From a phage, in the sequence record PZ534534.1: DNA of 64,000 bases, one strand, 5' to 3'. Below the pieces are notes generated by a model, which was given only the letters and a program-made list of their open reading frames with translations, did not search any database and was not told where the DNA came from. The translations under genes were made by a program, and so were the position numbers. Shown one piece after another: positions 4,494-53,123 of the stretch (position 1 is the first letter of the stretch; the number at the start of each line of letters is the position of its first letter).

Positions 4494-4501
4494 CCTTTAA
4501 A

Positions 4502-4527
4502 GCCCCGCTTCGGCGGGGTTTATTTTT
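4502..4527 (+). terminator. rho-independent terminator
   Basis: CCCCGC-UUCG-GCGGGG hairpin followed by TTTATTTTTA, immediately after J-like stop. Confidence 0.6.
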
Positions 4528-4536
4528 ATGCTCAGA

Positions 4537-4565
4537 TTGACTATTGTTACAAAATTTGGTAAAAT
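4537..4565 (+). promoter_or_regulatory. sigma70-like promoter
   Basis: TTGACT-N17-TAAAAT directly after terminator and upstream of 4599 gene. Confidence 0.4.
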
Positions 4566-4598
4566 ACCTTGTAGAGATTTTCATACCGGAGGAGTGAC

Positions 4599-6089: not shown

Positions 6090-6100
6090 GGCGGCGAGAT

Positions 6101-6787
6101 ATGGCAGAGATTAAGTCGGATGTTAACCACATCCACACTCTGCCAGATTTTGTTCAGGGAGGTCTTGACTACCTGCCTGGAGATTTTCTGGCTGAGAAGG
6201 TTAATTTAGTCACATTCTTAACCGTATACCTTAAAAGGTTGGAGGATGTTGATAAGATGCTGGTAGGTTTGGCTGAAGGAAGATTGCTTAACAATGCCAG
6301 CGGAAGATACCTTGACGAAGTTGGTAATCAACTTGGTATTCTTAGGAATGGACTTTCAGATGCTGATTTTCGTGCCACACTAATTATTCAGCAGGCCGCA
6401 GCATCAAGGGGCGGGACTCGCGAAGATGTCATCTCCACCTTGCGACAATTGTTCGGAAGAGACAATTTCGATACGTGGAAAGGAGACAACTTCAGGTTTG
6501 ACATAAATATTAGAAAAACTTGCTTTGACATATTGCAGTCTATCGATCAGATCTTAGATATGCTACCATTACCTTGTCATTTGCGTCTTACAGAATCGCA
6601 AGGGCAAGCTTTTGGTTTTGAAGGGGACTCTACAGCTCTTGGCTTCGGATCAGTGTGGGAAGAAAACCAATTCGGAGTTGGTGGGCTGGCTACTTTGCTG
6701 TATGTTCCTGACGTAAGACCTGATTGGGACACCACAACCATTTATTGTGAAAGTATTACAGTAAACGCAACTAGACAGGAGGGTTAA
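6101..6787 (+). CDS. tail protein (possible P2 gpI-like baseplate component)
   Basis: 228 aa ORF directly following baseplate-J-like gene; call by synteny only. Confidence 0.3.
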   Translation: MAEIKSDVNHIHTLPDFVQGGLDYLPGDFLAEKVNLVTFLTVYLKRLEDVDKMLVGLAEGRLLNNASGRYLDEVGNQLGILRNGLSDADFRATLIIQQAAASRGGTREDVISTLRQLFGRDNFDTWKGDNFRFDINIRKTCFDILQSIDQILDMLPLPCHLRLTESQGQAFGFEGDSTALGFGSVWEENQFGVGGLATLLYVPDVRPDWDTTTIYCESITVNATRQEG

Positions 6788-8859
6788 TGGCAACAGCTAT
6801 TTTTAAACCTTACCGTGATTACTCTACAATGGCTGCACGGTTTCATTACCGCACAGTTCAGGATACTGCCGTTCCTGGTAGGGATTATAATCATGTTGAG
6901 GGTGATGTAACTATCCCAATTGGGGCAACCAGTATTGAGATCCCAGTGGAAATTGTTGACAAATTACCCAACAGGTTGCCAAGAAGCTTCTTTATGGAGT
7001 TTTCATCAAAATCTCAAGGGGTGATGATTGGAACACAAAGGGCGAAATGTACAATAGTTTCAGATGAGAATCTTGACAGGATATCTTGGGATACTGTTGA
7101 GGAGAGAATGTTTCACCCAAGGTATTGGGTTACAACTACTCAGCAGACTGAAAGTACCTGTATTGTTGCAGATAACAACTGTTGTATTAACCGTTTAGTG
7201 TCAAGAACATATGGAGGTATGGCTGGGTGCATTTGGGAAACAGTTGACAAGTATGACCATTTCGGTATTGGGTTTGATGATCACTATGAGATGAGAAACA
7301 CCAAGCTTTGGTTCAGAATGTCAATAACCAATGCCAGCAACTTCTCCACCCCTGAAAAGATGATTATGACTGTAGACCTTGTTGATGGCACAATCATCTA
7401 TGTTCCTTTAGCTCAATATGCTGTCAGCATCTCAGAGGATAAGAATGTTGCAGAGATTCATATTGATTTCGAGGACTGCGTCGGGATGGATCAGAACAAC
7501 AACATGATGGGTGTTGATCCTCGACAGGTGAGAAGGATTTTAATACCGCTTATGCCTAAAGACTGGGTAAGTAATAGCACAGACCCGAGAACGGAAAATG
7601 TAGAGTGTGAGTTGCGCCTAGATCTGCTCCAGCCAGACACAGGCTGGAAAATGATGCAACTTAACAATATTCAGGTTAAAGAGCACGACGTTGGGATCTG
7701 CACCGCATATGACGATATGTGGAACGTATCTCCTTTAAGGGTGTTGAACAATATCAAGCGTCTGGGCTATACCGGAACCATAAACCATTATGTTGGTATG
7801 AGTCATTATTATGACTACACATGGTCAGGAACCCAATGGTCTATAAACAGAACAGGGGCGCTAAACGCTGCAGCTTATAAATGGCATGATGATTTTATGT
7901 ACAATGCCAAACGACATAACTTCGACGTTATGCAATCTGTAAGTTTTGAGCTTTTCAGCGATGCCTGCCCGTTGGAATGGACCCAAAGAGACTGGAACGA
8001 TAACTACGCTAAAACAGGGTATACACCCTGTAGCTACCTCCTGTCTCCAACCATTGAAGAGGGTATGAATTTCCTTACTGCAGTATTTAAGAATTTTGCA
8101 TCAGCCGCTATGAGAAACAACCTGCCAGTGATTATGCAGGTTGGTGAACCGTGGTGGTGGTACAATACCGATACTCGTAGACCTTGTATTTATGATTACC
8201 CTACAAAGCAGGCGTTTTATGATGAGACAGGTGAGTATGCATTAGATATTGGGACTATTGACGATCCTAAAACTGGCGGTGTTTACGACAAGTATGTAGC
8301 ATTTTGTCGTGGTAAGCTTGGCGCTCGTATTGCGGCCATTTCAAAGGCAATAAAGGCACACGCTGCATCAGCTCAGATGACAGCTCTGCTGTTTTTCCCA
8401 ACCATTATGGAAACAGAGCTTACGCAAAAGCTGAACCTTGCTGACCAATATAAAAAAGAAGCAGGTGCTCTTGATTTCTTCTGCACCGAGTGCTACGATT
8501 GGGTGATGCAGGGAGGTATTGAAAAGGCAAAAGAGTCTGTAAACATACCTATCGTTAAGTTAGGTTGGCAACCGTCTGAAATACAATACCTTGCAGGGTT
8601 CGTTCCTAGTAAAGAGCTTGCTCCGGTATATGGCTACGACCCAACCAGGAATTACCAAGAATTTTTATGGAGATGTATCTGCGGAAACATGGCAACCATA
8701 GAGTATAGATACCCTGAGGTAAAACAGTATGTGTGGGCATACCCGCAAGTAATGTCTGACAGCATCACTGTTACAGCCAGAGATTCTACCGTGCTTCATA
8801 TGGGGCAGGTTGCTCTGAAAGGGTATGTAGAAGATGTTGTCCCTCCAGACTTCTCATAA
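6787..8859 (+). CDS. tail-associated protein with N-terminal Calx-beta-like domain
   Basis: 690 aa; N-term GRDYNHVEGDVTIPIGATSIEIPVEIVD fits Calx-beta pattern; start overlaps upstream stop. Confidence 0.4.
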   Translation: MATAIFKPYRDYSTMAARFHYRTVQDTAVPGRDYNHVEGDVTIPIGATSIEIPVEIVDKLPNRLPRSFFMEFSSKSQGVMIGTQRAKCTIVSDENLDRISWDTVEERMFHPRYWVTTTQQTESTCIVADNNCCINRLVSRTYGGMAGCIWETVDKYDHFGIGFDDHYEMRNTKLWFRMSITNASNFSTPEKMIMTVDLVDGTIIYVPLAQYAVSISEDKNVAEIHIDFEDCVGMDQNNNMMGVDPRQVRRILIPLMPKDWVSNSTDPRTENVECELRLDLLQPDTGWKMMQLNNIQVKEHDVGICTAYDDMWNVSPLRVLNNIKRLGYTGTINHYVGMSHYYDYTWSGTQWSINRTGALNAAAYKWHDDFMYNAKRHNFDVMQSVSFELFSDACPLEWTQRDWNDNYAKTGYTPCSYLLSPTIEEGMNFLTAVFKNFASAAMRNNLPVIMQVGEPWWWYNTDTRRPCIYDYPTKQAFYDETGEYALDIGTIDDPKTGGVYDKYVAFCRGKLGARIAAISKAIKAHAASAQMTALLFFPTIMETELTQKLNLADQYKKEAGALDFFCTECYDWVMQGGIEKAKESVNIPIVKLGWQPSEIQYLAGFVPSKELAPVYGYDPTRNYQEFLWRCICGNMATIEYRYPEVKQYVWAYPQVMSDSITVTARDSTVLHMGQVALKGYVEDVVPPDFS

Positions 8860-14053: not shown

Positions 14054-17000
14054 ATGCTTCCAATCCCTTTGCTAAAACTTGGTCGTCATTTCCTCGATAA
14101 GAGGGGTGGAATTAAGGAACTTGCTGTTCTGTCATACCCAATAGACAACAGTGATGGTACAAGCAACACAGTATCCTATGTAAATAGCTTAGCTATACTT
14201 TTTGATGATGGTCAGCTTAATATTACTGGCTATAATAGGTTCGGAGAGTGTCGGACTGGAGATCTTGATACAATAAACTATCCTAATGAGGCAGCTTGGA
14301 ACGTAGACCATGTTTGGAGAGCTGACCGTGCATTTGTAATCCGCACATTCGATAATAAATTTTTCTATATTGGTTGCACAGCTGGTCTTATCGGATCGGA
14401 GGCAGCAGGTGGAAACGATGTTTGTGTCAGAGAGTGGACACCTTTGCCGGAACAGATCGTAACAGGGTTGCATTTGGACACCCATCCTGAGAGACTTGTT
14501 GAAGTAATGGGTGGCGTAAACAATACCGTGTGGGTAATTGCTGCACCAGAGGCTGATGGTATGCTTCACCTGTACGGCTCTGGCAATAATACTTACGGCT
14601 CTCTTCATGTTGACAAAAGTCAACACGCTACTCCAGTTAAGATCGGTGAAACATCTGAAAGTCCAGAGACAGGTCCTTGGAAAAATCCAAGAATTAATTG
14701 TGAAGTTCATGACAACTCGGTTATTTTTGGTGGTCCTAACGGATTCTGGATTGCAGGTTACGACTTTCTGAGAAATAACAGTAGAAACGACCTTGTTTGG
14801 CCTCCTGTGCAGATTACTCGTAACGATTTGAGGGGCATTCCTGCAGATGAGGAGTGGAAAGGGTTTATGTGTGGTCCTAACGGGGCAGTAATTGCTACAC
14901 AGAGGATGCATAGACCCGATGACCAGCAGCTTGTTAACGTATTTTATGGTCAAAACATTTGGGGAGATGATACATGGCGGGAACTGAATATCACCTACAC
15001 CCATGAGGTAATGATGGCTCGTGGGTACGGCACAAGTGGCATTTTCTTCAATAATGGCACTAAGCAGTATCGTGGGTTCTCTCGCAACTTATGTAATGAT
15101 ATTGGTGCACAATCTGCAAACAATAGTCCTAGGGCCGATTTTATCCACTATCAAGCTCTTGCTACAGCTAAATATGTTGAGCAACGCCTGCCAGTCAGCT
15201 GGACAGAGAGTGTTTATTTCCAAGGCATCCACAGAGAAGGTTTCTTAGGTACCTTTACTGTTGTTAATGGTAAACTTTGGTGGTCAGGTATCCCAAGGGG
15301 AAGTTTTACAGGATCTAATAACCTCTTTGGCGGCAGACTTAACAGCCAAGGGTTCACAGAGATTCCGGAGAATTGGTATAAAAATGTCCCGGTAGACAGT
15401 TGGGGTGTTGAGGATATTTTCGACGTTAACGGTGTTAGCAGCGTTAGCAATATTTACATTGGTGACACGGTCAAGATGAAATTGAAGCCTCAGCCAGAGG
15501 GGGCTACGTTCATTATTGACAAGATTGAACTGGTAAATGCTGCAGGCACGGTTGTTACAGATGCAAATTACCAATTCTCCACCAACTGGAACCACGGAGG
15601 GGCCAATGAAGTTGTTGTCACCCAGTATAACAGAAATGTTAACAGACGTGGCCTGTACTCTGTAAAAATAACCTATCATGACAAGCATGGCACAGGCAGA
15701 ACCCATACGACAAGGACTTTGAACTGGAACACCATAGTTCCTGCGTACCCGTCTGATGGTAAATGGCATACTGTCGGTAGAAACAAACAGTTCCATGTTA
15801 ATGATACTGTATACTTTGGGCTGAATGGGACCCAGCCTGCAGTAGAAGGGGATACATCGTATATGGTCAGACTCCACAGAATGGATGCTGGATCAGTCAC
15901 TTATGATGTGACCCAAGAGATCTACGATCAAAGACGCGCCACGTATGACAATATTGTGAAAACACAAGCCTTGTGGGAGTTCAATCCTAATGGCAAGGGT
16001 GGTAAAATGTTGCAGGTTAATGAGCAGAACGGAACGTCGTTGACTGTTCACGAACACCCAGACCCTTGGCCTGATCCTGGAAAACCTCACCCAGGAGCTC
16101 GTACACTGAAAATTGTCAGCCATGATGCAGGGTATTTCGGAATACGCTGGGAAGCTACAGTAAGATATGTCGACGGGACAACAAACAACATAGGGATTAC
16201 ACTTGGCGGCACTAGTGAAGATAACTCGCTGAAAATTGCCTACACGCCCAGAGGTATCTCTATTGATAATATGGATGTTGTTCGCAATGGTTACGGCGAT
16301 GTGAATGTCAAAGTTACTCTTGGCGAACATCTTGGTGGGGAAAGGATCATCATGTATGCCTTTGATCATGATCCACGCACCAATGGAACTTATGCAAATC
16401 AGGCATGGAGTTACCTGATAAATGCACCTGAGCCGAATACTAAAGAGTTCTACTATGGTATGAAGCGAGATGTGTGCAAGAAAACAGGAACACATGACTG
16501 GATTGCTATCTGCGTTAAAGATGAGCGCACAGCTTGGGATGAGCCTGTTAACAGATGGTTCATAGGTATTCCTACCAGAAGTGATAAGTATGTCGCAGAA
16601 TATATTGTATGCATGGGCGGTACCAACCTAAACATGTGTTGGAACGAAGATGTAAACAAATACTCTGATTATGACTATATGAGGGATTACTCTTGTAATT
16701 TGTGGTTTAACCAAACTACAGGTTACCCTCCAAGACAGGCGAGAGTAAACCCTGCAATCTTCACAGACACGCAGGTTTTCTTGACAAAACAGGCCAACGA
16801 GGTCCAGACCTTCAAGAACAAATACGACCCTAATAAGTGGTTCTATAACTGCTATGGGGCATTTTTCTGGGGACCTGGAGAATTACCTGGTGGTGGCTCT
16901 TGTTTTGAGGCTGCAACTTACGCCAGTGACAGATTTATGGGCCAGGTCAAGAAATACAAGATAATTCCAGGGCCTGAAACTTTAGGCAACGCTGTCGACC

Positions 17001-19681
17001 CCTATATCATCATGAGTGATCTAAGATCGAACATGGATGGAACATCCATATCTATGCAAGTTCCGGTAACAAACGGATACAAGCGTGTTGTGATGATCAT
17101 TAAGTGCGATCTGATAGGTAAGCAAGTTCTTGCAGAGAACGGAACTTCCACCCACCTATTTGAGACTGCTCTGCACTATCAGTTTGCTGATTCACCTTTT
17201 GCAGGGGATAAGAGAATATCTGACACAGACGCTGTGCGATGCAAGAAATTTATGCTAGGTGGTGGGTGGTGGTGGTATGAATTTGACTTAACAGACAAAT
17301 TCACCGACACGTCTAAAGTAGTGACGGGGCTTCGTCTAGACCTTGGCGAAAACATGCACAAAAGTGTTTGTGATGGCACCTACGGTGACCCAACAATCTA
17401 CTTAAAGTATGTCTCTTTTGAGCACCCAGAGGATGTTGTTTATGGTCCAAAACTGAGACTGTTTGGCAATTGGATTGCTAAAGACAGGGTAGGTATGGGC
17501 AAGAAGGTAAGAGGCTTCTTAATAGATGCCGGTACAGAGGACATGCTAGTCAATGCAGTGTGGCCTGAATTACCTGGGACTCAGTGGAACAACTCAGCCA
17601 AATCTATAAACTGGTTCAATATCCACAGGGCTATGTGGACAACCAACTGTTACCTGTGGAAAGAGCTGAATGACGGCGCTTTCGGGTTCACAGGCGGCAG
17701 AAGAATGGCAATCATTTGCTGGACAACGTTGCAAAGATGTTATGACCATGACTACGAGATTGGAGGTAGGGCATGGAAAAATATTAGGGATAGAATCATA
17801 ACCAACTTTGCAGATCCTAACGGTGGTGGAGCGTATGGCTTCGACTGCAGCAGGCTCATCCATTTGAACGGATCCTCTGCCTACAAGAAAGAAGGTTACT
17901 CTGGGTCTATGATAGAATGGGGCCTGGTGAAAGATGCTCGCGTGCTGATGGGTCAACAACTTGCTGCTGCAATAGGTCCTAATGCAGTGCAATCTGTTAA
18001 ACCTGCGTGGTTTGATATCCCATTGTGGTCATCCGGTACACCAGGAACTGCTGCAATCAACCCTACCACGGGGGATCTGGAAATCTCTTGGGAGGACTTG
18101 AAGCAGGTTGGAGGCTGGGATAAAACAGGGTATCAGGTCCAGTGGTGGAGGGCTGATGGATCTTTAGCCGCTGATGAGTTTGTTAAGGACAATTTCTACA
18201 CCATGTCCTCTGCAAAAGCACAGGAATTGTTCGGTCAGGCAACTCCGTCAACGATCACCATGTCTATGTGCTGTAAAGACAACAGGACTGGAGCTTTGGG
18301 GCCAAGGGTTGCTAAAGTTTTCTCAGGTATTAAATGGAATCTACCTGTCCAAAGTATTTCATGGAAGCAAATAGGTGATAACAAGCTGCTGGTTACCCCT
18401 GCCTGTCAGTTCAACGCAACTCTTAACGTTGATCCTGCTGTTGCGGCAAACTCAGCTAAAGCTTCTGACTTCTCTGTGTCTAACACTGCTATGGCAGATG
18501 TGAGGAAGATTGACACGCTGAACGCCAGAATTACCTGTAAAAACACTTATGGCACATTCCAAATCATCAACAACTTCACAGATGCTGATTCTAAGGTAGT
18601 GAGGACAGCAAGCCAGACTCTGAGTTTAGGAACTCTGGCCTATGCGGCACTGATCACCGAACAGTCGGCAACACTCCAAGGAGGCGGTGTAGGCAAGTCC
18701 ATTGCAACACCTGTGTGGAAGCCAAATGAGTGGGTTGTGTTTGATTTGACTGTGGACTTCTCCAGCGATAATAACTGGACATGGGTAAGGAATTGTTTGT
18801 CACAGTTGATGGGCGGTCCAAGCTCCGTTAGTGATAGTCACGACTCTACTGACCCGAGTGTGTTCCAGGTAGGTAAAACTCACCCAGAGACTGGAGAAAC
18901 GTTGCCTGACAGGAAGTATGCGTTGGTTTGCATCTCTTACGGGAAGGCAGATGTCACATTCTCAGGGACACACACTTATAACGGAACTTACAACTTCTCA
19001 AGGAAGTATAGTCTCAAAGCAGGGAACATTATAGACGAGGTCGGTGTGCTGTATAATCCGGGCAACGGCATAGGGATTGTGGGCGGTAAACTGCAGATGC
19101 AGGAACCTTCTATCACCCCTTCCAACGTATCCGGGATTAGAAAGACTTGGGAAAGTAGTAATACCAACATTGCAACAGTGGATGCCACCACAGGGCTGGT
19201 AACATTTAAAGCTACTGGGAATGTCACCATAAAGTTTGTAGTTAGAGATGATGCAGGCCGCAAAACGTCTTCAACATCGTTTACTGTCAGACAGATGGCA
19301 CCTCAGTGGTTTATTTGGGAAGGAAATCCTCTTGACGGGGCTTACCCTAGACCTGCAGGAACGTCCAATATGAGGGTCTTTACCGGTCCGGTCATGAACA
19401 ATCCGACCACAACCACCAACCCTACATTTTTTGGTGCTTACATACCTGAAATTATTGGCCTACCAAGGAACCAGATACAACTGCTTTTCGGAGCAGGTGT
19501 TGATGGTCTAGCCACTTTTGGGTACAGTGACAACATTGATGCAGCCAGAAGCTCGGGTTGGATTGGATTTAAGTTTCAGTGGAACCCTGGTGGTAGAACA
19601 TTAGGTGTTGCAAGCATAGGTGTTATGCTACCTGGTAACCAGCAATACCATCTCGAAGCTTATACAAACTTCCCTAGTTAA
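14054..19681 (+). CDS. giant structural/adhesin-like protein with Big_2 domain
   Basis: 1875 aa; RCC1-like repeats near N-term; Big_2-like segment ATVDATTGLVTFKATGNVTI near C-term. Confidence 0.5.
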   Translation: MLPIPLLKLGRHFLDKRGGIKELAVLSYPIDNSDGTSNTVSYVNSLAILFDDGQLNITGYNRFGECRTGDLDTINYPNEAAWNVDHVWRADRAFVIRTFDNKFFYIGCTAGLIGSEAAGGNDVCVREWTPLPEQIVTGLHLDTHPERLVEVMGGVNNTVWVIAAPEADGMLHLYGSGNNTYGSLHVDKSQHATPVKIGETSESPETGPWKNPRINCEVHDNSVIFGGPNGFWIAGYDFLRNNSRNDLVWPPVQITRNDLRGIPADEEWKGFMCGPNGAVIATQRMHRPDDQQLVNVFYGQNIWGDDTWRELNITYTHEVMMARGYGTSGIFFNNGTKQYRGFSRNLCNDIGAQSANNSPRADFIHYQALATAKYVEQRLPVSWTESVYFQGIHREGFLGTFTVVNGKLWWSGIPRGSFTGSNNLFGGRLNSQGFTEIPENWYKNVPVDSWGVEDIFDVNGVSSVSNIYIGDTVKMKLKPQPEGATFIIDKIELVNAAGTVVTDANYQFSTNWNHGGANEVVVTQYNRNVNRRGLYSVKITYHDKHGTGRTHTTRTLNWNTIVPAYPSDGKWHTVGRNKQFHVNDTVYFGLNGTQPAVEGDTSYMVRLHRMDAGSVTYDVTQEIYDQRRATYDNIVKTQALWEFNPNGKGGKMLQVNEQNGTSLTVHEHPDPWPDPGKPHPGARTLKIVSHDAGYFGIRWEATVRYVDGTTNNIGITLGGTSEDNSLKIAYTPRGISIDNMDVVRNGYGDVNVKVTLGEHLGGERIIMYAFDHDPRTNGTYANQAWSYLINAPEPNTKEFYYGMKRDVCKKTGTHDWIAICVKDERTAWDEPVNRWFIGIPTRSDKYVAEYIVCMGGTNLNMCWNEDVNKYSDYDYMRDYSCNLWFNQTTGYPPRQARVNPAIFTDTQVFLTKQANEVQTFKNKYDPNKWFYNCYGAFFWGPGELPGGGSCFEAATYASDRFMGQVKKYKIIPGPETLGNAVDPYIIMSDLRSNMDGTSISMQVPVTNGYKRVVMIIKCDLIGKQVLAENGTSTHLFETALHYQFADSPFAGDKRISDTDAVRCKKFMLGGGWWWYEFDLTDKFTDTSKVVTGLRLDLGENMHKSVCDGTYGDPTIYLKYVSFEHPEDVVYGPKLRLFGNWIAKDRVGMGKKVRGFLIDAGTEDMLVNAVWPELPGTQWNNSAKSINWFNIHRAMWTTNCYLWKELNDGAFGFTGGRRMAIICWTTLQRCYDHDYEIGGRAWKNIRDRIITNFADPNGGGAYGFDCSRLIHLNGSSAYKKEGYSGSMIEWGLVKDARVLMGQQLAAAIGPNAVQSVKPAWFDIPLWSSGTPGTAAINPTTGDLEISWEDLKQVGGWDKTGYQVQWWRADGSLAADEFVKDNFYTMSSAKAQELFGQATPSTITMSMCCKDNRTGALGPRVAKVFSGIKWNLPVQSISWKQIGDNKLLVTPACQFNATLNVDPAVAANSAKASDFSVSNTAMADVRKIDTLNARITCKNTYGTFQIINNFTDADSKVVRTASQTLSLGTLAYAALITEQSATLQGGGVGKSIATPVWKPNEWVVFDLTVDFSSDNNWTWVRNCLSQLMGGPSSVSDSHDSTDPSVFQVGKTHPETGETLPDRKYALVCISYGKADVTFSGTHTYNGTYNFSRKYSLKAGNIIDEVGVLYNPGNGIGIVGGKLQMQEPSITPSNVSGIRKTWESSNTNIATVDATTGLVTFKATGNVTIKFVVRDDAGRKTSSTSFTVRQMAPQWFIWEGNPLDGAYPRPAGTSNMRVFTGPVMNNPTTTTNPTFFGAYIPEIIGLPRNQIQLLFGAGVDGLATFGYSDNIDAARSSGWIGFKFQWNPGGRTLGVASIGVMLPGNQQYHLEAYTNFPS

Positions 19682-38161: not shown

Positions 38162-38644
38162 ATGTCAGATTTTATGTGGAAAGTAGGTTACGCAGCTCCT
38201 GAAATGTGTGAGGCTTGCTTTGTGAAAATAGGCCGCGAGGATATCGACAAAGTGATCCTTAAGTTTCGTGATGTGGCTGTGATCGGCAACCGAGTGCTTA
38301 AGCACTTAAAGAATCTGAAGCTCACTAAAAAGAAGTTCTTCGGACTTTTCGAAGAGAAAGTTGATGCTTGGACCCATTGCATCCAGGAAGCTAAATCTCA
38401 CTACAGTGCTATCGTTACTCCAGAACGGGTAGCCAAGATGGAAGGATTCATCAACAGCACAGAATTTGAGTGTCTGAAAGCTGCACTCGATAGTTATCCG
38501 AAATGCCTCAAGCACTTGGACAAGTATGTAGAAAAGGATGGGGAAATGTATCTCACCCTGGACGCATACTATGAGATGCAAGAAATTTTAAATTTAGATT
38601 TGACATTGGTATCCACCGAGTATACAATAGGTATCCGGGTTTAA
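38162..38644 (+). CDS. hypothetical protein
   Basis: 160 aa ORF with GGAGA RBS. Confidence 0.4.
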   Translation: MSDFMWKVGYAAPEMCEACFVKIGREDIDKVILKFRDVAVIGNRVLKHLKNLKLTKKKFFGLFEEKVDAWTHCIQEAKSHYSAIVTPERVAKMEGFINSTEFECLKAALDSYPKCLKHLDKYVEKDGEMYLTLDAYYEMQEILNLDLTLVSTEYTIGIRV

Positions 38645-38650
38645 CACTAG

Positions 38651-38677
38651 GCCCTGCCCGAAAGGGTGGGGCTTTTT
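38651..38677 (+). terminator. rho-independent terminator with GAAA tetraloop
   Basis: CCCUGCCC-GAAA-GGGUGGGG stem (two G-U pairs) followed by CTTTTT. Confidence 0.55.
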
Positions 38678-38695
38678 GCATTAGGAGACAGCAAA

Positions 38696-39460
38696 TTGAA
38701 ATTCATCTACAAAGAACACTACCACAAAGGTGTTGTGTGGAGTCTATTTGACGGGTCTGGTGGTGCAGTTATTGACTGGGCAAAAGCTGGGTACCTGTGC
38801 CTGTGCTTTAATGCAGAAGGTGCTGACCACGGCAGTTATGCAGAGGTGATAACCGATCATCCTAACATTCACTATGTGGATTATTGGATTGACCCATGGT
38901 TCCCTCAAGAAACTTTTTGCATGTATCCAGCTCCAGACTTTATTCTTGCATTTCCTCCGTGCACGCATTTAGCGGTATCAGGAGCTGCACACTTTAAGAA
39001 AAAGCTGGCTAAGGACCCACTGATCCAAATTAATGCTGTAAAGGATGCTCGGGTTGCGGAAGAGTTGGGAGAGATTTACGATTGCCCGTGGCATGTAGAG
39101 AATCCTGTAGGTGTTATGTCCACACTGTGGCGCAAACCTGATTACCGTTTTCACCCTTCGGATTATGGCGGGTATTTACCGGAAGATGATGTAAATCCAT
39201 GGTTTCCTGAATTTATAGCTCCACGTGATGCCTATCCAAAAATAACTTGCGGCTGGATAGGTAATGGATTTATAATCCCAGCCACAAAACCTGTCCCGCA
39301 AATAGTTGACGTGGTTAGCGGGTATTCCATGCAACACGCCAAGCTGGGTGGAAAGAGTGCAAGAACGAAGATGATTCGAAGCCTCACACCACGTGGCTGG
39401 GCAAAAGCCGTATTCTTAGCAAACGAGCCTGTAGTAAGGAGCAGAATTAATGGGAAGTAA
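38696..39460 (+). CDS. compact C5-cytosine methyltransferase-like protein
   Basis: LFDGSGGA (motif I-like), FPPCT (motif IV-like, PCT not PCQ), HVENP (motif VI-like); TTG start after AGGAGA. Confidence 0.4.
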   Translation: MKFIYKEHYHKGVVWSLFDGSGGAVIDWAKAGYLCLCFNAEGADHGSYAEVITDHPNIHYVDYWIDPWFPQETFCMYPAPDFILAFPPCTHLAVSGAAHFKKKLAKDPLIQINAVKDARVAEELGEIYDCPWHVENPVGVMSTLWRKPDYRFHPSDYGGYLPEDDVNPWFPEFIAPRDAYPKITCGWIGNGFIIPATKPVPQIVDVVSGYSMQHAKLGGKSARTKMIRSLTPRGWAKAVFLANEPVVRSRINGK

Positions 39461-41528: not shown

Positions 41529-41586
41529 TGTTTAACAAAGAGTGGGAGGGGTAGTACAACCGCCTCCCCTTTAAGGAGAACACTTT

Positions 41587-42321
41587 ATGAACGAGTTCAG
41601 AGACCACTGTGTAGCCAACCACCTGTGGTCAGAGATACTGGAGTATGACGGTCAAAATCTTTTTTGGAAGATAGACATTCTGGCAGGTAGCGGTGTAGGA
41701 TATGTTAAAACTTCAGCAGGCTCCAGAGCTGACAAGGGGCAAGATGCTGATGGCAGGCCTGTAGTTAGTCTAGGAAAGCATTGCACTAAAGGTGCCCACG
41801 TCATAATCTGGGAAATGTTTAACGGCCCTGTACCGGAAGGGTATGAGGTTGACCACATCAAGGAGATAAGGGAAACAGGTGGTGTGGCTGATAACAGTAT
41901 TCAAAATTTGCAACTACTCGAGCCCACAGATAACAAAAAGAAAAGTTGCAAGATACCTCGTAGCAACAACAAATCTGGCAGGGTCGGGGTGCACTATTCT
42001 GAAGAAAGAGATGCATGGATAGCTCAAGGCACAGACTCTGTAGGGGAAAGGGTCTGGCTAGGCCAGTACAGAACTTTTGAAGAGGCAGAGTGGGCAAGAA
42101 AGTTCTTCGAAGATAATGGTTTTTCGCACAAGAGTGGAAGAGCCGTGCAGTATAATAATACCAGCGGTTGCTCAGGGGTGAATTGGGATAAAACCCATGA
42201 AAGATGGGTAGCCAGAATTTATGTAGATGGTAAAAGGAAATGCCTTGGGTATTTCAAGAATAGGGACGATGCAATAGCTGCAAGAAAGAATGCTGAGAAG
42301 AAACAGGAGGGGACAGTATGA
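41587..42321 (+). CDS. free-standing HNH endonuclease with AP2-like DNA-binding repeats
   Basis: HNH core GAHVIIWEMFNG...EVDHI...NSIQNLQLL; C-terminal GVHYSEERDAW-type repeats. Confidence 0.55.
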   Translation: MNEFRDHCVANHLWSEILEYDGQNLFWKIDILAGSGVGYVKTSAGSRADKGQDADGRPVVSLGKHCTKGAHVIIWEMFNGPVPEGYEVDHIKEIRETGGVADNSIQNLQLLEPTDNKKKSCKIPRSNNKSGRVGVHYSEERDAWIAQGTDSVGERVWLGQYRTFEEAEWARKFFEDNGFSHKSGRAVQYNNTSGCSGVNWDKTHERWVARIYVDGKRKCLGYFKNRDDAIAARKNAEKKQEGTV

Positions 42322-48751: not shown

Positions 48752-49117
48752 ATGGAACAAATGAACGATCAAACGTCGGTTGCAATGAACGAGCAAGAAC
48801 AACCTCAAGAATTTTTCTTAGGGTTAAGTAAAGATCAAGTGTCTCTTTTGCTAGTGCTTTCTTCTTTCATGGGAAGACTTCAGGAGCTCACACAACAACC
48901 GGAGGCTGAACAATTATTTCAGGCTCTGCGTGAAGAAGAAAAATATCGTCGTTTGGACTATGCCTTAGGTTGGGTAGCTCAACAACGAGATATGCTAATG
49001 GCCCTCTCTGGGACTACAAGTTTTGCAATGGGGCTGTTGGCTCAAGTTCAGGACAAATTAATTCAAGCAGGGTTTGCACATACGGCAAACACTAACGAAG
49101 AACAAGGAGACAAATAA
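48752..49117 (+). CDS. hypothetical protein
   Basis: 121 aa ORF with GGAGA RBS. Confidence 0.4.
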   Translation: MEQMNDQTSVAMNEQEQPQEFFLGLSKDQVSLLLVLSSFMGRLQELTQQPEAEQLFQALREEEKYRRLDYALGWVAQQRDMLMALSGTTSFAMGLLAQVQDKLIQAGFAHTANTNEEQGDK

Positions 49118-50343
49118 TGAGCGTTATTCAACAATTCGCTAACCCGATGAATCCGCGTGAAACTGTTTTACTGGCTCACGGCATGATTAAACGTGTCAGC
49201 ATCAAGCCTATCAAAGGTGCTGATCCTACAACAGGTATTAAAACCACTGTGTGGCAAGGTAAGAAAATTGAATCCAGCCACACCATCTCTTTACTGATTT
49301 CTGAACTGGATTCCTCTGATAACCTGCTTCAAGGTGGTGAAGAAGTTTGGATCAGCATGGGTGATAAGCTGCTTAAACCTGGTCATCAAGACTCTGTCTC
49401 TGTTAAAATTGATGACAAGTGGGAAACCGTAACGCCGGGATGGATCGTAAATATCCCTTTGAAGGCAAACGAGCATAACGGTAAGACCTATTACAAAGGC
49501 TCACTGGCTAAGATGGTCAAGCTGGGTGCAGGAGAGGCTCCAGCAGCGACTCAGCAGCAAAAACAGCAACAAGGTGCACAATCACAAGGCCAGAAGCAGA
49601 AACCTCAGCAGAATGCCAATCAGGACGTTTTACGCATCTATGGCGATGTGACTCAGATTGTTGGCAACGTGGTTACTGTTAATGACCACAAGATTGGCGA
49701 AGGTGCTATGGTTGTAACTGATGAGCAGCTTAAAGACCTGGTGGTAGGTGGTCGTGTTGCAGCCATTGTTGACAAAGACACCGGAAACATTATCAGTGGT
49801 TTCAAAGCCTATCCCCCTAAGGCAGAGAACGGCACTCAAGGCTCTGGTGGCAAGCGTAAATCCTCTTACGACCCTATTGGTGTGGAGACGGGACATAGCA
49901 TCAACGCGTTGCAAATCATCCTGGATCGCGGGTTTAAGGTAGACGACCCACTAGGTGTGGCTAAAACACTGCACGTAGTCACCATTGAGCTTAAGAAAGA
50001 GTATGCTCAAGCCACCAACCGAACCGAAGATGAAGTAGGTGCCAGTGTCGGTAATGCGGTGTTGAACGCTTGTCGCCGTATTGACAAGAAAACGAAAGTT
50101 GAGGATTTTGCAGCGGCAATTACTGCAGAAGCAAAAGATGTCTTGACTAATCTGGCTGAGCCGTTGTACGATTGGATCAAGAACGGTGCTGGGTCCACTG
50201 ACCATCAAGAACCTCAAGCTGCCAAGCAGGAAGCTGCTCCACAGCAAAACACTATAGACGCTCCTCCTGTAAATGATGAGGAAGATGACCCGATGGATCA
50301 GAATCCGGCGCAGTATGAGTTCGATGACTCGATCCCTTTCTAA
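49117..50343 (+). CDS. single-stranded DNA-binding protein-like
   Basis: Gln/Gly-rich linker and acidic C-terminal tail ending DDSIPF (compare E. coli SSB DDDIPF); 408 aa. Confidence 0.5.
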   Translation: MSVIQQFANPMNPRETVLLAHGMIKRVSIKPIKGADPTTGIKTTVWQGKKIESSHTISLLISELDSSDNLLQGGEEVWISMGDKLLKPGHQDSVSVKIDDKWETVTPGWIVNIPLKANEHNGKTYYKGSLAKMVKLGAGEAPAATQQQKQQQGAQSQGQKQKPQQNANQDVLRIYGDVTQIVGNVVTVNDHKIGEGAMVVTDEQLKDLVVGGRVAAIVDKDTGNIISGFKAYPPKAENGTQGSGGKRKSSYDPIGVETGHSINALQIILDRGFKVDDPLGVAKTLHVVTIELKKEYAQATNRTEDEVGASVGNAVLNACRRIDKKTKVEDFAAAITAEAKDVLTNLAEPLYDWIKNGAGSTDHQEPQAAKQEAAPQQNTIDAPPVNDEEDDPMDQNPAQYEFDDSIPF

Positions 50344-50351
50344 GGTCAGTT

Positions 50352-50930
50352 ATGAAATGCAAACGTTGTGGGGAGGACAAGGAGGCCTCCGACTTCTATA
50401 CCAGCAACAAATCAACGTGCAAAGAGTGCTGTAAGAAGGCCAGCAGGGAGGCTGACCAATTTGCTAAAGACTCTTCAGAAAAAGGTGTAATACGTGTGTT
50501 GTACAAGACTCAAAAGTGCAACAGCAAGCAAAGAGGTCACCCTCCTCCGACTTACACCAAAAAAGAGTTTAAGGAGTGGCTATACCTGAACGGTTACAAA
50601 GAGTTGTATGATCAGTGGGTAGCCAGCGGATACGACAAAAGGAAAAAGCCTTCTTGTGACAGGATAGATGATTTCAAAGGGTACTCTTTTGATAATATCC
50701 GTTTAACGACCTGGGGAGAAAATAAAGACAAGCAGACAGAGGATATTTTGTTACATAGAAGCACCAGCGGTAGACGGTGCAAAAATGTAAGGAGGTTGGA
50801 CATGAATGGCAACGTTCTTAAAGAGTGGGTATCCCACAACTCTTGCAGCAGAGAAACCGGAATATATGTTGGTTACTACATTCATGAAAAAATTCCAGCT
50901 CCCGATGGATACCTCTATGAATACTTCTAA
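50352..50930 (+). CDS. Cys-rich putative nuclease (HNH-like?)
   Basis: N-terminal CxxC...CxxCC cluster; SFDNIRLTTWGEN segment loosely HNH-like; 192 aa. Confidence 0.3.
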   Translation: MKCKRCGEDKEASDFYTSNKSTCKECCKKASREADQFAKDSSEKGVIRVLYKTQKCNSKQRGHPPPTYTKKEFKEWLYLNGYKELYDQWVASGYDKRKKPSCDRIDDFKGYSFDNIRLTTWGENKDKQTEDILLHRSTSGRRCKNVRRLDMNGNVLKEWVSHNSCSRETGIYVGYYIHEKIPAPDGYLYEYF

Positions 50931-50992: not shown

Positions 50993-51409
50993 ATGACATT
51001 AGAAGATATCATTGTTAAACCTGAGAACTATGACCAATACAACCTGTCAACTCAATCTGTAGACCTTGGATGCGCCACAGTCAGTGCATGGCTGGTTAAC
51101 GGAAAAGAGCTGGATAAATGCTTAGAAGCTCACATGTCTATTAACAAGTTTCTGGATGAAAATACTCACTGGCTTGAAGGTGCAGGCGTATATGCTTCAT
51201 GGTTGGAGAGTATGGGATTCGACTACCAATCTGAAGAGGGGTGGTGGAGCTATTTAGCTATCTGCCCAGAGACGCTGCAATGCTTCATGAAATATTCTGA
51301 AGATTTGGAGTACCGGGCGGTGGTTGATAGTGCTATTGCCCGTTATAGCCGTAAACCTTTTTCCCACGACATTAAAACTGTGGAAGAATTTGTTGAAGTT
51401 TTCTGTTGA
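50993..51409 (+). CDS. hypothetical protein
   Basis: 138 aa ORF with AGGAGA RBS. Confidence 0.4.
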   Translation: MTLEDIIVKPENYDQYNLSTQSVDLGCATVSAWLVNGKELDKCLEAHMSINKFLDENTHWLEGAGVYASWLESMGFDYQSEEGWWSYLAICPETLQCFMKYSEDLEYRAVVDSAIARYSRKPFSHDIKTVEEFVEVFC

Positions 51410-51505
51410 CACAAGTTGAAAGGTGTGTAATTATAACTTCATAGAACGGGAGGACGTGATGAACGAAGAAAACTGGGATGTATAACTAACAGGAGGCCAC
51501 TGCCC

Positions 51506-51703
51506 ATGATTTATCGAATCCGTGTAAGAGAAGATGCACCAGGCTGTTACTTTGACTGGCGTGGGTGGTGGTTTCTCCACCCGATGGATGGACTCACAGA
51601 TAGAATGCTGGATGCTGCCCTTTATACAGATACCGACATAGAATATAATCTCTATCTGAAGGACGGTATAGATAACGGTCTATTTGAAGCAATTCCTGTG
51701 TAA
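51506..51703 (+). CDS. hypothetical protein
   Basis: 65 aa ORF with AGGAGG RBS. Confidence 0.4.
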   Translation: MIYRIRVREDAPGCYFDWRGWWFLHPMDGLTDRMLDAALYTDTDIEYNLYLKDGIDNGLFEAIPV

Positions 51704-51771: not shown

Positions 51772-52197
51772 ATGATCTATGAAATGCCAAAACTGATTCG
51801 TGACGATGCCCAAAACGCTCACACCATTATTATGGGCAAACGCATGGATATTATTTGTCATAAAGATTTCTGGGAAGGAAGTTACTTCACAGAGTATTTT
51901 GGTAAACTGGACAATGGTCTGCTGATCCAGTTCTACACCGATGCGGAAAACAACATTCCCTGGGAGTTCGAAACTGAAGATGTCCATAAACTTTTCACCT
52001 TCCTCGGTATTAAGGTTAAGGCCAAGTTTGAAGAAGGTGAGTGCGACGATTGTGGATTTTATGAGGTAACAGATTTCTACCTTCCTAGCGGTAAGAACCT
52101 TTACTATGAAAGCCACTTCGGTAACTCCAATATGCCACAGTGCTGGACTGAGTTTTTTGAAATTGCGGAAGAGGAGCTGGCTTACCGTGATTATTGA
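51772..52197 (+). CDS. hypothetical protein
   Basis: 141 aa ORF. Confidence 0.4.
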   Translation: MIYEMPKLIRDDAQNAHTIIMGKRMDIICHKDFWEGSYFTEYFGKLDNGLLIQFYTDAENNIPWEFETEDVHKLFTFLGIKVKAKFEEGECDDCGFYEVTDFYLPSGKNLYYESHFGNSNMPQCWTEFFEIAEEELAYRDY

Positions 52198-52645
52198 TAC
52201 TGTAGAGGGAGATTTAATCTCCCTTTTTAAGAGTGGTGCTGGTCACCTGATCCACGGTTGTAACTGCTTCCACACAATGGGCAAGGGTATAGCAAAACAG
52301 ATTGCCCGTGAGTTTCCTCAAGCACTGTCAGCCGACAAAGAGACTAGATACGGTTGCCTAAGTAAACTGGGTGCGTTCTCCCGATGGGAGCACTTATCTC
52401 CGATAGGTATTGTCTACGGAATCAATCTATATACCCAGTTCTACCCAGGACCTAATGCTGAGTATTTCTCAATCCTGAAAGGCTTTGAGCTAGTCAATGA
52501 AGTATTCAGCGGATCGACTTTACCATTCTACATCCCTAAGATCGGGTGCGGCATAGGCGGTTTGAAGTTGGAACACGTAGAGGACGTTATTAACCTTGCC
52601 ACTTTCGACATAGATATTGTCGTGGTGGAGTACAAAAAGTGTTGA
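52187..52645 (+). CDS. macro domain protein (ADP-ribose binding/processing)
   Basis: GTG start; IIDTVEGDLISLF...GHLIHGCNCFHTMGKGIAKQI fits macro-domain N-terminal and Gly-rich motifs. Confidence 0.5.
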   Translation: MIIDTVEGDLISLFKSGAGHLIHGCNCFHTMGKGIAKQIAREFPQALSADKETRYGCLSKLGAFSRWEHLSPIGIVYGINLYTQFYPGPNAEYFSILKGFELVNEVFSGSTLPFYIPKIGCGIGGLKLEHVEDVINLATFDIDIVVVEYKKC

Positions 52646-52670
52646 CGACCATCTTCTGAGGTGATATAGT
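52642..52670 (+). promoter_or_regulatory. sigma70-like promoter
   Basis: TTGACG-N17-TATAGT overlapping macro gene stop. Confidence 0.45.
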
Positions 52671-53095: not shown

Positions 53096-53123
53096 TTGAC
53101 ATCTGAAAACTGCAGTGTATAAT
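53096..53123 (+). promoter_or_regulatory. sigma70 consensus promoter
   Basis: TTGACA-N16-TATAAT upstream of 53155 gene. Confidence 0.55.

What the first reader, a model, noticed from the sequence alone, without database searches (positions are those of the whole stretch)
52187..52645. Phage-encoded macro domain protein
The N-terminal GDLISLF and Gly-rich HGCNCFHTMGKGIA motifs fit the macro (ADP-ribose binding or hydrolysing) fold. In a lytic phage this suggests reversal of ADP-ribosylation or degradation of an ADP-ribose-derived signal used by host immunity.
Basis: partly seen in the sequence, partly recalled or inferred. Interest (0 to 1): 0.5.

Follow-up and report, generated by a model that had tools for sequence, protein, structure and literature searches.

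The report
Phage macrodomain, T4 Tk.4/AdfM homologue
This is a real but ordinary gene: a small ADP-ribose-removing (macrodomain) enzyme of an rV5-like E. coli phage, already labelled as such in public records, and a homologue of phage T4 Tk.4/AdfM, which protects T4 from the DNA-ADP-ribosylating DarTG2 defence.

Summary
Window 52187-52645 (+) is an intact 152-codon ORF with a GTG start. It carries both quoted motifs and passes the Pfam Macro threshold. It models confidently (pLDDT 95.4) as a TARG1/DarG/Poa1p-class macrodomain.

The window is a Vequintavirus (rV5-like, virulent E. coli phage). The same CDS is already annotated as 'macro domain protein', 'Poa1p_like' or 'phosphatase' in several GenBank/RefSeq records.

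It is a full-length homologue of T4 Tk.4 (39% identity, E 1e-39) and of RB49 Tk.4 (69%). A 2025 preprint named T4 Tk.4 AdfM because its deletion sensitises T4 to DarTG2.

The family has an almost invariant Gln where DarG and TARG1 have the catalytic Lys. Streptomyces SCO6735, which removes ADP-ribose from thymidine in DNA, has Gln at the same position.

Best reading (about 0.55): an early, dispensable orphan 'antitoxin' that hydrolyses DarT2-made ADP-ribosyl-thymidine on phage ssDNA.

Main rival: the related Adpp macrodomains, which are ADPR-1''-phosphate phosphatases inside NARP1 operons. This lineage has no detectable NARP1 genes.

Verdict: new member of a known kind, low-to-moderate interest.

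The parts
52187..52645 (+). Macrodomain gene (152 aa, GTG start, TGA stop). Homologue of T4 tk.4/adfM and the syntenic equivalent of bas54_0092.
   Evidence: Relatives annotate an identical 459-nt CDS.
52170..52176 (+). Shine-Dalgarno-like AGAGGAG, 10 nt upstream of the GTG start. It lies inside the 3' end of the upstream ORF.
   Evidence: Read directly from the sequence. Inference only.
52253..52294 (+). Codons 23-36, HGCNCFHTMGKGIA. This is the first ADP-ribose-binding loop. It holds H23, the conserved Asn N26 and the Gly-rich turn.
   Evidence: Conservation over 235 family members: N26 235/235, H23 229/235, G34 234/235, A36 234/235. The equivalent Asn is functionally important in SCO6735 (N27S), in DarG and in PhiKZ AdfM (N23A).
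52424..52438 (+). Codons 80-84, NLYTQ. Q84 occupies the position of the catalytic Lys of DarG (K80) and TARG1 (K84).
   Evidence: The profile-to-PDB alignment places family 'YTQ' opposite DarG 'PTK' and TARG1 'ITK'. Q84 is present in 233/235 members, N80 in 234/235 and Y82 in 233/235. SCO6735 Gln85 sits at the same position and is essential for dT-ADPr hydrolysis.
52535..52561 (+). Codons 117-125, PKIGCGIGG. This is the second, diphosphate-binding Gly-rich loop.
   Evidence: P117 233/235, G120 234/235, G122 232/235, G125 227/235. It aligns with DarG 'PPLGVGNGG' and TARG1 'PRIGCGLDR'.
52568..52570 (+). Codon 128, TTG (Leu). All close relatives have TGG (Trp). This is a substitution private to this phage.
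   Evidence: In the family this position is W in 185/235 and L in 20/235, so Leu is probably tolerated.
51772..52197 (+). Upstream ORF (141 aa, PHROG 8157, function unknown). It overlaps the macrodomain gene by 11 nt, so the two are probably co-transcribed and translationally coupled.
   Evidence: Relatives have the same 426-nt/459-nt pair with an 11-nt overlap.
51406..51434 (+). Sigma-70-like promoter (TTGACA-17-AATTAT with an upstream TG). It is a candidate start of the unit 51506-51703 / 51772-52197 / 52187-52645.
   Evidence: This is a consensus match only. Promoter-like sites in the region are not significantly enriched (7 found against 4.9 +/- 2.1 expected).

Best explanation
The gene encodes a stand-alone macrodomain of the ALC1-like class (TARG1/DarG/SCO6735/Poa1p). 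It belongs to the Tk.4 family found widely in phages.

Proposed mechanism. The gene is expressed from the early/middle gene array downstream of the DNA polymerase gene. The protein acts as an 'orphan antitoxin'. When the host toxin DarT2 (of the DarTG2 defence system) uses NAD+ to ADP-ribosylate thymidines in single-stranded phage DNA, the macrodomain binds the ADP-ribose through its two Gly-rich loops. It then hydrolyses the ribose-thymine bond, releasing ADP-ribose and restoring replicable DNA.

Catalysis is probably of the SCO6735 type. A Gln (Q84), held in place by the conserved Asn (N26), positions the distal ribose for attack by water. This differs from the Lys-based chemistry of DarG and TARG1. 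The protein has no counterpart of DarG's C-terminal DarT-binding domain.

What is shown: fold, family membership, conservation of the active-site signature, dispensability of the syntenic gene in a sister phage, and absence of NARP1 partners.

What is inferred: the substrate (dT-ADPr DNA), the catalytic role of Q84 and N26, the anti-DarTG2 phenotype, and the expression timing.
For: (1) Macrodomain identity.

(2) Full-length homology to T4 Tk.4 (39% identity, 99% coverage, E 1e-39) and to RB49 Tk.4 (69%). RB49 Tk.4 sits in the same vs-tk.4-tk position as the T4 gene.

(3) T4 Tk.4 was the single HIDEN-SEQ hit on a DarTG2 host. A clean knockout sensitised T4 to DarTG2, and the gene was named AdfM (bioRxiv 10.1101/2025.11.20.689424).

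(4) A more distant phage macrodomain, PhiKZ gp104, removes ADP-ribose from DarT2-modified DNA in vitro and neutralises DarT2 toxicity (PMC13309987).

(5) Q84 aligns with DarG K80 and TARG1 K84. SCO6735 has Gln85 at that position, hydrolyses dT-ADPr DNA and protects against DarT; its Q85A and N27S mutants lose activity (PMC9411070). The window protein keeps every family-invariant residue.

(6) The syntenic gene bas54_0092 in Vequintavirus Bas54 is non-essential on E. coli K-12, with 31 of 31 TA sites hit. This is as expected for an accessory counter-defence gene.

(7) Global alignment scores group the protein with the Tk.4 proteins (299 to T4, 538 to RB49) rather than with the NARP1-embedded macrodomain of Vibrio phage Bennett (156).
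Against: No experiment exists on any Vequintavirus protein.

The T4 assignment comes from one preprint. It is genetic only, and de-ADP-ribosylation by a Tk.4-type protein has not been shown biochemically.

At 39% identity, substrate specificity could differ.

A homologue about 36% identical, with the same H-x-C-N-C...Y-x-Q signature, lies inside a NARP1 operon (Vibrio phage Bennett). Its relative, Adpp of Vibrio phage Gary, is biochemically an ADPR-1''-phosphate phosphatase. The active-site signature therefore does not discriminate between the two activities.

I did not find data on whether Vequintaviruses are resistant to DarTG2.

The equivalence of Q84 to SCO6735 Gln85 is transitive, through DarG and TARG1. 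It is not from a direct alignment.
Confidence: 0.55

Rival explanations
1. Adpp-like ADP-ribose-1''-phosphate phosphatase. The macrodomain would dephosphorylate ADPR-1''-P, the product of NAD+ cleavage by RES-domain (aRES) defence proteins. This yields ADPR for NAD+ reconstitution.
For: Poa1p (ADP-ribose 1''-phosphate phosphatase) is among the best sequence and fold matches. PHROG 335 and RefSeq name the family 'phosphatase'. The macrodomain of Vibrio phage Gary inside an Adps-macro-Namat operon converts ADPR-1P to ADPR and is required to overcome aRES. The homologous gene of Vibrio phage Bennett has the same operon position and the same H-x-C-N-C / Y-x-Q signature.
Against: The Adpp function depends on NARP1. 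tblastn with Bennett Adps and Namat found nothing (E <= 1) in the window or in the whole 95-99%-identical APECc02 genome. T4 also carries Tk.4 next to vs and tk.3 rather than inside a NARP1 operon, and there the gene protects against DarTG2. Only 15% of 859 NARP1 operons carry a macrodomain gene, whereas 2,731 phage records carry a homologue of the window protein. The window protein scores about half as well against the NARP1-embedded macrodomain as against T4 Tk.4.
Confidence: 0.12
2. Eraser of another ADP-ribosyl or acyl-ADP-ribose conjugate. Candidates are protein or RNA ADP-ribosylation by other host defence transferases, and O-acyl-ADP-ribose produced by the phage's own Sir2-like enzyme (a TARG1/OARD1-like deacylase role).
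For: TARG1/OARD1 is the top structural match, and in the PDB this protein is named both Terminal ADP-ribose Glycohydrolase 1 and O-acetyl-ADP-ribose deacetylase 1. SCO6735 also de-ADP-ribosylates a protein substrate. The closely related APECc02 genome encodes a protein annotated 'Sir2 (NAD-dependent deacetylase)' outside the window.
Against: The TARG1 catalytic dyad is absent. The Lys position is Q84, and the Asp position (the D of TARG1 'GCGLDR') aligns with G125. There is no genomic linkage to the Sir2-like gene. T4 has Tk.4 with a DarTG2-specific phenotype. No ADP-ribosyltransferase was found among the flanking genes, none of which has a Pfam domain.
Confidence: 0.13
3. Binder or degrader of ADP-ribose-derived immune signals (Thoeris gcADPR or His-ADPR), as the first reader also proposed.
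For: Macrodomains can bind such signals: the Thoeris II effector ThsA senses His-ADPR through a macrodomain. The protein has an intact ADP-ribose pocket.
Against: No characterised relative has this activity. The anti-Thoeris factors mentioned in the papers read here are sequestering proteins, active-site blockers (Tad3-7) and RyR-domain enzymes, not macrodomains. The strict conservation of the catalytic-position residues N26 and Q84 points to hydrolysis of a C1''-linked conjugate rather than sequestration.
Confidence: 0.05

Closest known systems
T4 Tk.4 = AdfM (anti-DarT factor, macrodomain); bioRxiv 10.1101/2025.11.20.689424
   Same: Stand-alone macrodomain of about 150 aa. Alignable end to end (39% identity, E 1e-39). 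Identical active-site signature: HGCNCFHTMG, NLYTQF, P-x-IG-x-GIG. Non-essential in the laboratory host. Encoded by a large virulent coliphage.
   Different: It belongs to a different phage family (Straboviridae, not Vequintavirinae). Its neighbours differ: T4 has vs upstream and tk.3 downstream, while here the upstream gene is an unknown PHROG 8157 gene overlapping by 11 nt. No functional data exist for the Vequintavirus protein. The window copy carries a private W128L change.
RB49 (Krischvirus) Tk.4
   Same: 69% identical over the full length. It is the closest relative outside the Vequintavirinae, and it sits at the T4 tk.4 position.
   Different: It is uncharacterised. It is closer to the Vequintavirus protein (69%) than to T4 Tk.4 (45%). 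This suggests horizontal exchange between unrelated coliphage lineages.
Streptomyces coelicolor SCO6735 (PDB 5e3b; PMC9411070)
   Same: ALC1-like macrodomain with Gln, not Lys, at the catalytic position. It also has the conserved Asn and His and a Gly-rich phosphate-binding loop. It hydrolyses thymidine-linked ADP-ribose on DNA and protects against DarT without being part of a DarTG operon.
   Different: It is a cellular protein with only about 20% identity (Foldseek TM 0.75). The residue equivalence is inferred through DarG and TARG1. Its DNA-positioning Lys34 corresponds to K33 here, but that position is mostly Ala in the phage family.
DarG antitoxin of DarTG2 (PDB 5m3i, 5m31, 7omu)
   Same: Same macrodomain class. 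It is the best PDB sequence hit and the only hit in PADLOC. Same presumed reaction.
   Different: DarG uses Lys80. It has a C-terminal DarT-binding domain (models of about 330 aa) and is encoded next to darT. The window protein scores 39 bits against an NCBIfam cut-off of 250.
PhiKZ gp104 'AdfM' (PMC13309987)
   Same: A phage-encoded stand-alone macrodomain that removes DarT2-made ADP-ribose from DNA.
   Different: Only 20-27% identical (hhalign probability 97%). It keeps the DarG-type Lys (FPTKDNW). It is imported into the phage nucleus. It is therefore a separate lineage that shares the name.
Adpp of NARP1-AP (Vibrio phage Gary; bioRxiv 10.64898/2026.01.28.702374) and yeast Poa1p
   Same: Homologous Poa1p-like macrodomains. 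The syntenic Bennett protein is about 36% identical and has the same H-x-C-N-C and Y-x-Q signature.
   Different: Adpp is embedded between Adps and Namat and acts on the small molecule ADPR-1''-phosphate. No Adps or Namat is present in this phage lineage.

Membership tests
Macro domain (Pfam PF01661) | Profile match above the curated gathering score | tested here: met
   25.5 bits against a cut-off of 22, E 1.4e-5.
Macro domain (Pfam PF01661) | Three-layer alpha/beta/alpha macro fold with an ADP-ribose pocket | tested here: met
   AF2 model with pLDDT 95.4. Foldseek matches to TARG1, Poa1p and DarG at TM 0.73-0.78, and 160 PDB hits at E <= 1e-3.
Tk.4 / AdfM(T4) family of phage macrodomains | Full-length homology to T4 Tk.4 | tested here: met
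   39% identity over 153 columns, E 1e-39. 69% identity to RB49 Tk.4.
Tk.4 / AdfM(T4) family of phage macrodomains | Stand-alone macrodomain of about 150 aa carrying the family signature H23, N26, G34, A36, D50, N80, Y82, Q84, P117, G120, G122 | tested here: met
   All signature residues are present in the window protein. Each is found in at least 229 of 235 family sequences.
Tk.4 / AdfM(T4) family of phage macrodomains | Dispensable in a defence-free host | tested here: met
   By proxy only. The syntenic gene bas54_0092 is 'Non-essential' with 31/31 TA sites hit, and T4 tk.4 with 45/46.
Tk.4 / AdfM(T4) family of phage macrodomains | Required for growth on a DarTG2 host; removes ADP-ribose from thymidine in DNA | not testable with these tools
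   Needs a phage knockout with plaque assay, and a biochemical assay.
DarG (DarTG2 antitoxin; NCBIfam NF048014, PADLOC PDLC02990) | Score above the equivalog cut-off, i.e. two-domain architecture with the C-terminal DarT-binding domain | tested here: not met
   39.4 bits against a cut-off of 250. Only positions 3-141 of 338 (NCBIfam) and 4-142 of 329 (PADLOC) are matched. The protein is 152 aa.
DarG (DarTG2 antitoxin; NCBIfam NF048014, PADLOC PDLC02990) | Catalytic lysine (K80) | tested here: not met
   Q84 aligns with K80 and is Gln in 233/235 family members.
DarG (DarTG2 antitoxin; NCBIfam NF048014, PADLOC PDLC02990) | Adjacent darT toxin gene | tested here: not met
   The flanking ORFs match only PHROGs of unknown function or an endonuclease PHROG, and have no Pfam domain.
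TARG1/OARD1 | Lys84/Asp125 catalytic dyad | tested here: not met
   Q84 lies opposite K84. G125 lies opposite the Asp of 'GCGLDR'.
Adpp (NARP1-AP phosphatase) | Gene embedded in or next to an Adps-Namat (NARP1) operon | tested here: not met
   tblastn with Bennett Adps and Namat found no hit at E <= 1 in the window or the whole APECc02 genome. The neighbours are unrelated.
Adpp (NARP1-AP phosphatase) | ADPR-1''-phosphate phosphatase activity | not testable with these tools
   Needs an LC-MS assay with purified protein, as.
SCO6735-type (Gln-type) ALC1-like macrodomain hydrolases | Gln at the DarG K80 / TARG1 K84 position, together with the conserved Asn that positions it | tested here: met
   Q84 and N26. 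The SCO6735 Gln85/Asn27 equivalence is taken from PMC9411070, so it is transitive rather than a direct alignment.

The most novel reading that the evidence does not exclude
Tk.4-type phage macrodomains may be dual-substrate enzymes. The same Gln-type active site (H-x-C-N-C ... Y-T/G-Q) occurs in T4 AdfM, which gives a DarTG2 phenotype, and in the NARP1-embedded homologue of Adpp, which is an ADPR-1''-phosphate phosphatase. The Vequintavirus protein could therefore both repair DarT2-modified DNA and process small ADP-ribose derivatives. Alternatively it could counter an ADP-ribosylating defence not yet linked to macrodomains. A further possibility is that the Gln-based chemistry is a separate, phage-favoured mechanism distinct from the DarG lysine chemistry.
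Probability: 0.15. Interest if true: 0.55.

Novelty: new member of a known kind. Interest (0 to 1): 0.25.

Why it matters
If the inference holds, rV5-like phages, which are used in phage-therapy and biocontrol cocktails against E. coli, carry a built-in enzymatic counter to DarTG2. That would help explain or predict their host range on strains with this defence system.

It would also extend the AdfM function from T-even phages to an unrelated myovirus subfamily. The family is very large: 2,731 phage records and about 19,600 clusters at 50% identity.

The near-invariant Gln at the position of the DarG catalytic Lys is a useful mechanistic pointer. So is the co-existence of AdfM-like and Adpp-like relatives with one active-site signature. 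Both bear on how macrodomain substrate specificity is set.

The gene itself is ordinary and already annotated.

Tried and rejected
(1) The upstream ATG at 52106 (a 179-aa product) was rejected as the start. The extension overlaps the preceding ORF by 92 nt, and no homologue carries it.

(2) DarG membership was rejected. The protein lacks the Lys and the C-terminal domain, has no darT neighbour, and scores far below the cut-off.

(3) NARP1 context was searched by tblastn with Vibrio phage Bennett Adps and Namat against the window and the complete APECc02 genome. Nothing was found.

(4) Pfam and PHROG scans of up to ten neighbouring ORFs gave no linked ADP-ribose, NAD or ART function.

(5) I tried to obtain a direct residue alignment to SCO6735 or Poa1p from the PDB sequence search. 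Those entries never ranked among the printed alignments. The Q84 = Gln85 equivalence therefore rests on the shared alignment to DarG K80 and TARG1 K84.

(6) A literature search for a macrodomain-NARP1 link with combined terms returned nothing. A second search with different terms found the Adpp preprint.

(7) AdfB of ICP1 was checked as a possible relative. It is described as a direct DarT binder with low sequence identity to DarG.

(8) The promoter/terminator scan gave only consensus matches that are not enriched over shuffles. Transcription-unit statements are therefore tentative.

Full report
**What is there**

Window 52187-52645 (+) is an intact ORF of 152 codons plus a stop. The longest ORF in this frame starts at an ATG at 52106. 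The GTG at 52187 is the better start for three reasons:
- Homologues begin at exactly this residue (T4 Tk.4 MIVKYIKGD, RB49 Tk.4 MIIDTVKGD).
- An AGAGGAG Shine-Dalgarno sequence lies 10 nt upstream.
- Related genomes annotate the same 459-nt CDS.

The gene overlaps the preceding ORF (51772-52197, function unknown) by 11 nt. There is also a second Gly-rich loop, PKIGCGIGG (aa 117-125).

**Source of the window**

The window is 95-99% identical to, and collinear with, Vequintavirus genomes such as naswa, magaca, APECc02 and rV5 variants. These are virulent rV5-like myoviruses of E. coli.

The gene lies in a long array of small + strand genes downstream of the DNA polymerase gene. Several sigma-70-like promoter matches occur in this array. 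They are consensus matches only and are not enriched over shuffles.

**Is it a macrodomain?**

Yes, on several independent lines:
- Pfam Macro passes its gathering score: 25.5 bits against 22.
- PHROG 335 ('phosphatase') matches at 9e-58.
- The DarG models of NCBIfam and PADLOC match at about 1e-10, but only over their N-terminal macrodomain part.
- A profile of 48 homologues hits the solved macrodomains of DarG, TARG1, BT1257, SCO6735 and Poa1p at E 1e-17 to 1e-14.
- An AlphaFold2 model built on that alignment has pLDDT 95.4 and pTM 0.90.
- The best Foldseek PDB matches of that model are TARG1, Poa1p and DarG, with TM 0.73-0.78.

This places the protein in the ALC1-like class. The MacroD/YmdB class was not examined directly.

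**Already annotated**

The identical or near-identical CDS carries these labels in public records:
- 'macro domain protein' in HdK5, I29 and O157 typing phage 14;
- 'with Macro domain, Poa1p_like family' in rV5_ev168;
- 'phosphatase' in RefSeq APECc02.

A tblastn search finds homologues in 2,731 phage records, including T-even phages, where the gene is tk.4. The T4 RefSeq note already reads 'contains A1pp phosphatase motif'. An exhaustive profile search finds 19,655 cluster representatives at E <= 1e-3.

**Closest characterised relatives**

- *T4 Tk.4.* It aligns end to end with the window protein (39% identity, E 1e-39). A 2025 preprint reports that tk.4 was the single transposon-sequencing hit when T4 was grown on a DarTG2 host. 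A clean knockout became DarTG2-sensitive, and the gene was named adfM. Earlier work had shown that T4 lacking AdfA and AdfN stays DarTG2-resistant, which predicted such a factor.
- *RB49 Tk.4.* It sits in the same vs-tk.4-tk position as the T4 gene and is 69% identical to the window protein.
- *PhiKZ gp104.* It is also called AdfM and removes DarT2-made ADP-ribose from DNA in vitro. It is only 20-27% identical to the window protein and keeps the DarG-type lysine.
- *Adpp.* This Poa1p-like macrodomain lies inside Adps-macro-Namat (NARP1-AP) operons of Vibrio phages. It converts ADPR-1''-phosphate to ADPR and so defeats the aRES defence. The homologous gene of Vibrio phage Bennett sits exactly between Adps-like and Namat-like genes. 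It is about 36% identical to the window protein.

**Active site**

I aligned 235 family members: the hits that are at least 130 aa long, the window protein, and the reference proteins T4 Tk.4, RB49 Tk.4, Bennett gp178 and PhiKZ gp104. The window protein keeps every near-invariant residue:

| Residue | Present in |
|---|---|
| H23 | 229/235 |
| N26 | 235/235 |
| G34 | 234/235 |
| A36 | 234/235 |
| D50 | 233/235 |
| N80 | 234/235 |
| Y82 | 233/235 |
| Q84 | 233/235 |
| P117 | 233/235 |
| G120 | 234/235 |
| G122 | 232/235 |

In the profile-to-PDB alignments, family 'YTQ' lies opposite DarG 'PTK' (K80) and TARG1 'ITK' (K84). G125 lies opposite TARG1 Asp125. The family therefore lacks both the DarG and the TARG1 catalytic residues.

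Streptomyces SCO6735 has Gln85 at this same position. It hydrolyses thymidine-linked ADP-ribose on DNA and protects against DarT. It loses activity on Q85A and N27S. This makes a Gln-type, water-mediated mechanism plausible here.

The NARP1-embedded Bennett protein has the same signature (AHQCNCF..., NVYGQY). The signature therefore cannot separate DNA de-ADP-ribosylation from ADPR-1P dephosphorylation.

**Choosing between the two functions**

Four observations favour the AdfM-type role:
- Adpp is useful only with NARP1. tblastn with Bennett Adps and Namat finds nothing (E <= 1) in the window or in the complete APECc02 genome.
- T4's tk.4 lies next to vs and tk.3 rather than inside a NARP1 operon, and it shows the DarTG2 phenotype.
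- Only 15% of 859 NARP1 operons carry a macrodomain gene, whereas 2,731 phage records have a homologue of the window protein.
- Global alignment scores place the window protein with the Tk.4 proteins (299 to T4, 538 to RB49; T4 to RB49 339). All three score only 156-168 against the Bennett protein.

In Bas54, a sister Vequintavirus, the syntenic gene has the same 426-nt/459-nt pair with an 11-nt overlap. It tolerated insertions at 31 of 31 TA sites. This fits an accessory counter-defence gene.

I therefore favour the AdfM-type role, with confidence about 0.55. The remainder is spread over Adpp-like, other eraser, and signal-related roles.

**Membership**

| Family | Result |
|---|---|
| Macro domain | Met |
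| Tk.4/AdfM(T4) family | Met on all sequence-level criteria; the defining phenotype cannot be tested here |
| DarG | Not met (no Lys, no C-terminal domain, no darT neighbour, 39 bits against a cut-off of 250) |
| TARG1 dyad | Not met |
| Adpp operon context | Not met |

**Novelty and interest**

This is a new, untested member of a known kind, and its domain annotation is already public.

Three points go beyond the annotations:
- the explicit link to AdfM;
- the Gln-for-Lys active site shared with SCO6735;
- the fact that AdfM-like and Adpp-like relatives share one signature, which leaves room for dual specificity.

A specialist would not be surprised by any of this. Interest is 0.25.

Noticed in passing
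window 49117-50343 (+): A 408-aa protein (PHROG 4477, unknown function; no Pfam hit). It has a Gln/Gly-rich central linker and an acidic C-terminal tip...YEFDDSIPF. From memory, this resembles the E. coli SSB C-terminal tail DFDDDIPF. The syntenic gene bas54_0087 is scored 'Essential' in the HIDEN-SEQ data (8 of 57 TA sites hit). It is a candidate phage single-strand-binding protein or SSB-tail mimic, and it is annotated only as hypothetical.
   Followed up: partly
window 50352-50930 (+): A 192-aa endonuclease VII/HNH-like gene (PHROG 1035, 6e-33). It is an insertion relative to APECc02: window 50352-50925 has no counterpart there. It is present in rV5_ev168 ('Phage endonuclease VII') and in Bas54 ('putative homing endonuclease', non-essential). 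It is probably a mobile homing endonuclease, and it lies 1.3 kb upstream of the macrodomain gene.
   Followed up: partly
window 2642-3509, 15354-18301, 41581-42317: Further segments with no megablast counterpart in APECc02. These are about 0.9 kb and 2.9 kb in the tail-fibre region and 0.7 kb just before the DNA polymerase gene. Their content was not examined.
   Followed up: no
window 52568-52570 (codon 128 of the macrodomain gene): The window has TTG (Leu) where every close Vequintavirus relative has TGG (Trp), in the helix after the second Gly-rich loop. In the wider family this position is Trp in 185/235 and Leu in 20/235, so the change is probably tolerated. The model's lowest internal pLDDT block (87) covers residues 121-130.
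   Followed up: partly
L001 (Escherichia phage vB_Eco_Alma, OV101294) 7188-7870: Alma has a 1-nt deletion in a run of five T at codon 13 of the macrodomain gene. Its annotated CDS (7277-7645, 'Phi92_gp185') therefore starts at internal Met31 and lacks H23 and N26. This is either a homopolymer sequencing error or a real inactivation. The label 'Putative macro domain protein' is attached instead to the unrelated 171-nt ORF downstream (7700-7870). Several truncated homologues from contigs of about 135 kb (P0017, P0046) may reflect the same kind of event.
   Followed up: partly
L004 (phage RB49) 3001-3456 compared with window 52187-52645: The Tk.4 of the T4-like Krischvirus RB49 is 69% identical to the Vequintavirus protein but only 45% identical to T4 Tk.4. 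This suggests horizontal exchange of this gene between unrelated coliphage lineages.
   Followed up: partly
L008 (Vibrio phage Bennett, MN958086) 3132-6138: The macrodomain gene gp178 lies between 'ribose-phosphate pyrophosphokinase' (gp177, Adps-like) and 'nicotinate phosphoribosyltransferase' (gp179, Namat-like), and its start overlaps the end of gp177. This is the NARP1-AP arrangement described for Vibrio phage Gary. In GenBank gp178 is still 'hypothetical protein'.
   Followed up: yes
window 52642-52670 and 53096-53123 (+): There are two sigma-70-like promoter matches. TTGACG-17-TATAGT (with an upstream TG) starts inside the last codons of the macrodomain gene, upstream of the 52700 ORF. 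A perfect TTGACA-16-TATAAT lies at 53096-53123. Both fit an early-gene array with many host-type promoters. They are consensus matches only.
   Followed up: no
L009 (APECc02, outside the window) 38201-38962, record 71200-71961: The closely related genome encodes a protein annotated 'Sir2 (NAD-dependent deacetylase)' next to a 'nucleotide pyrophosphohydrolase'. A phage Sir2-like enzyme would consume NAD+ and could produce O-acyl-ADP-ribose, a known macrodomain substrate. No linkage to the macrodomain gene was seen.
   Followed up: no
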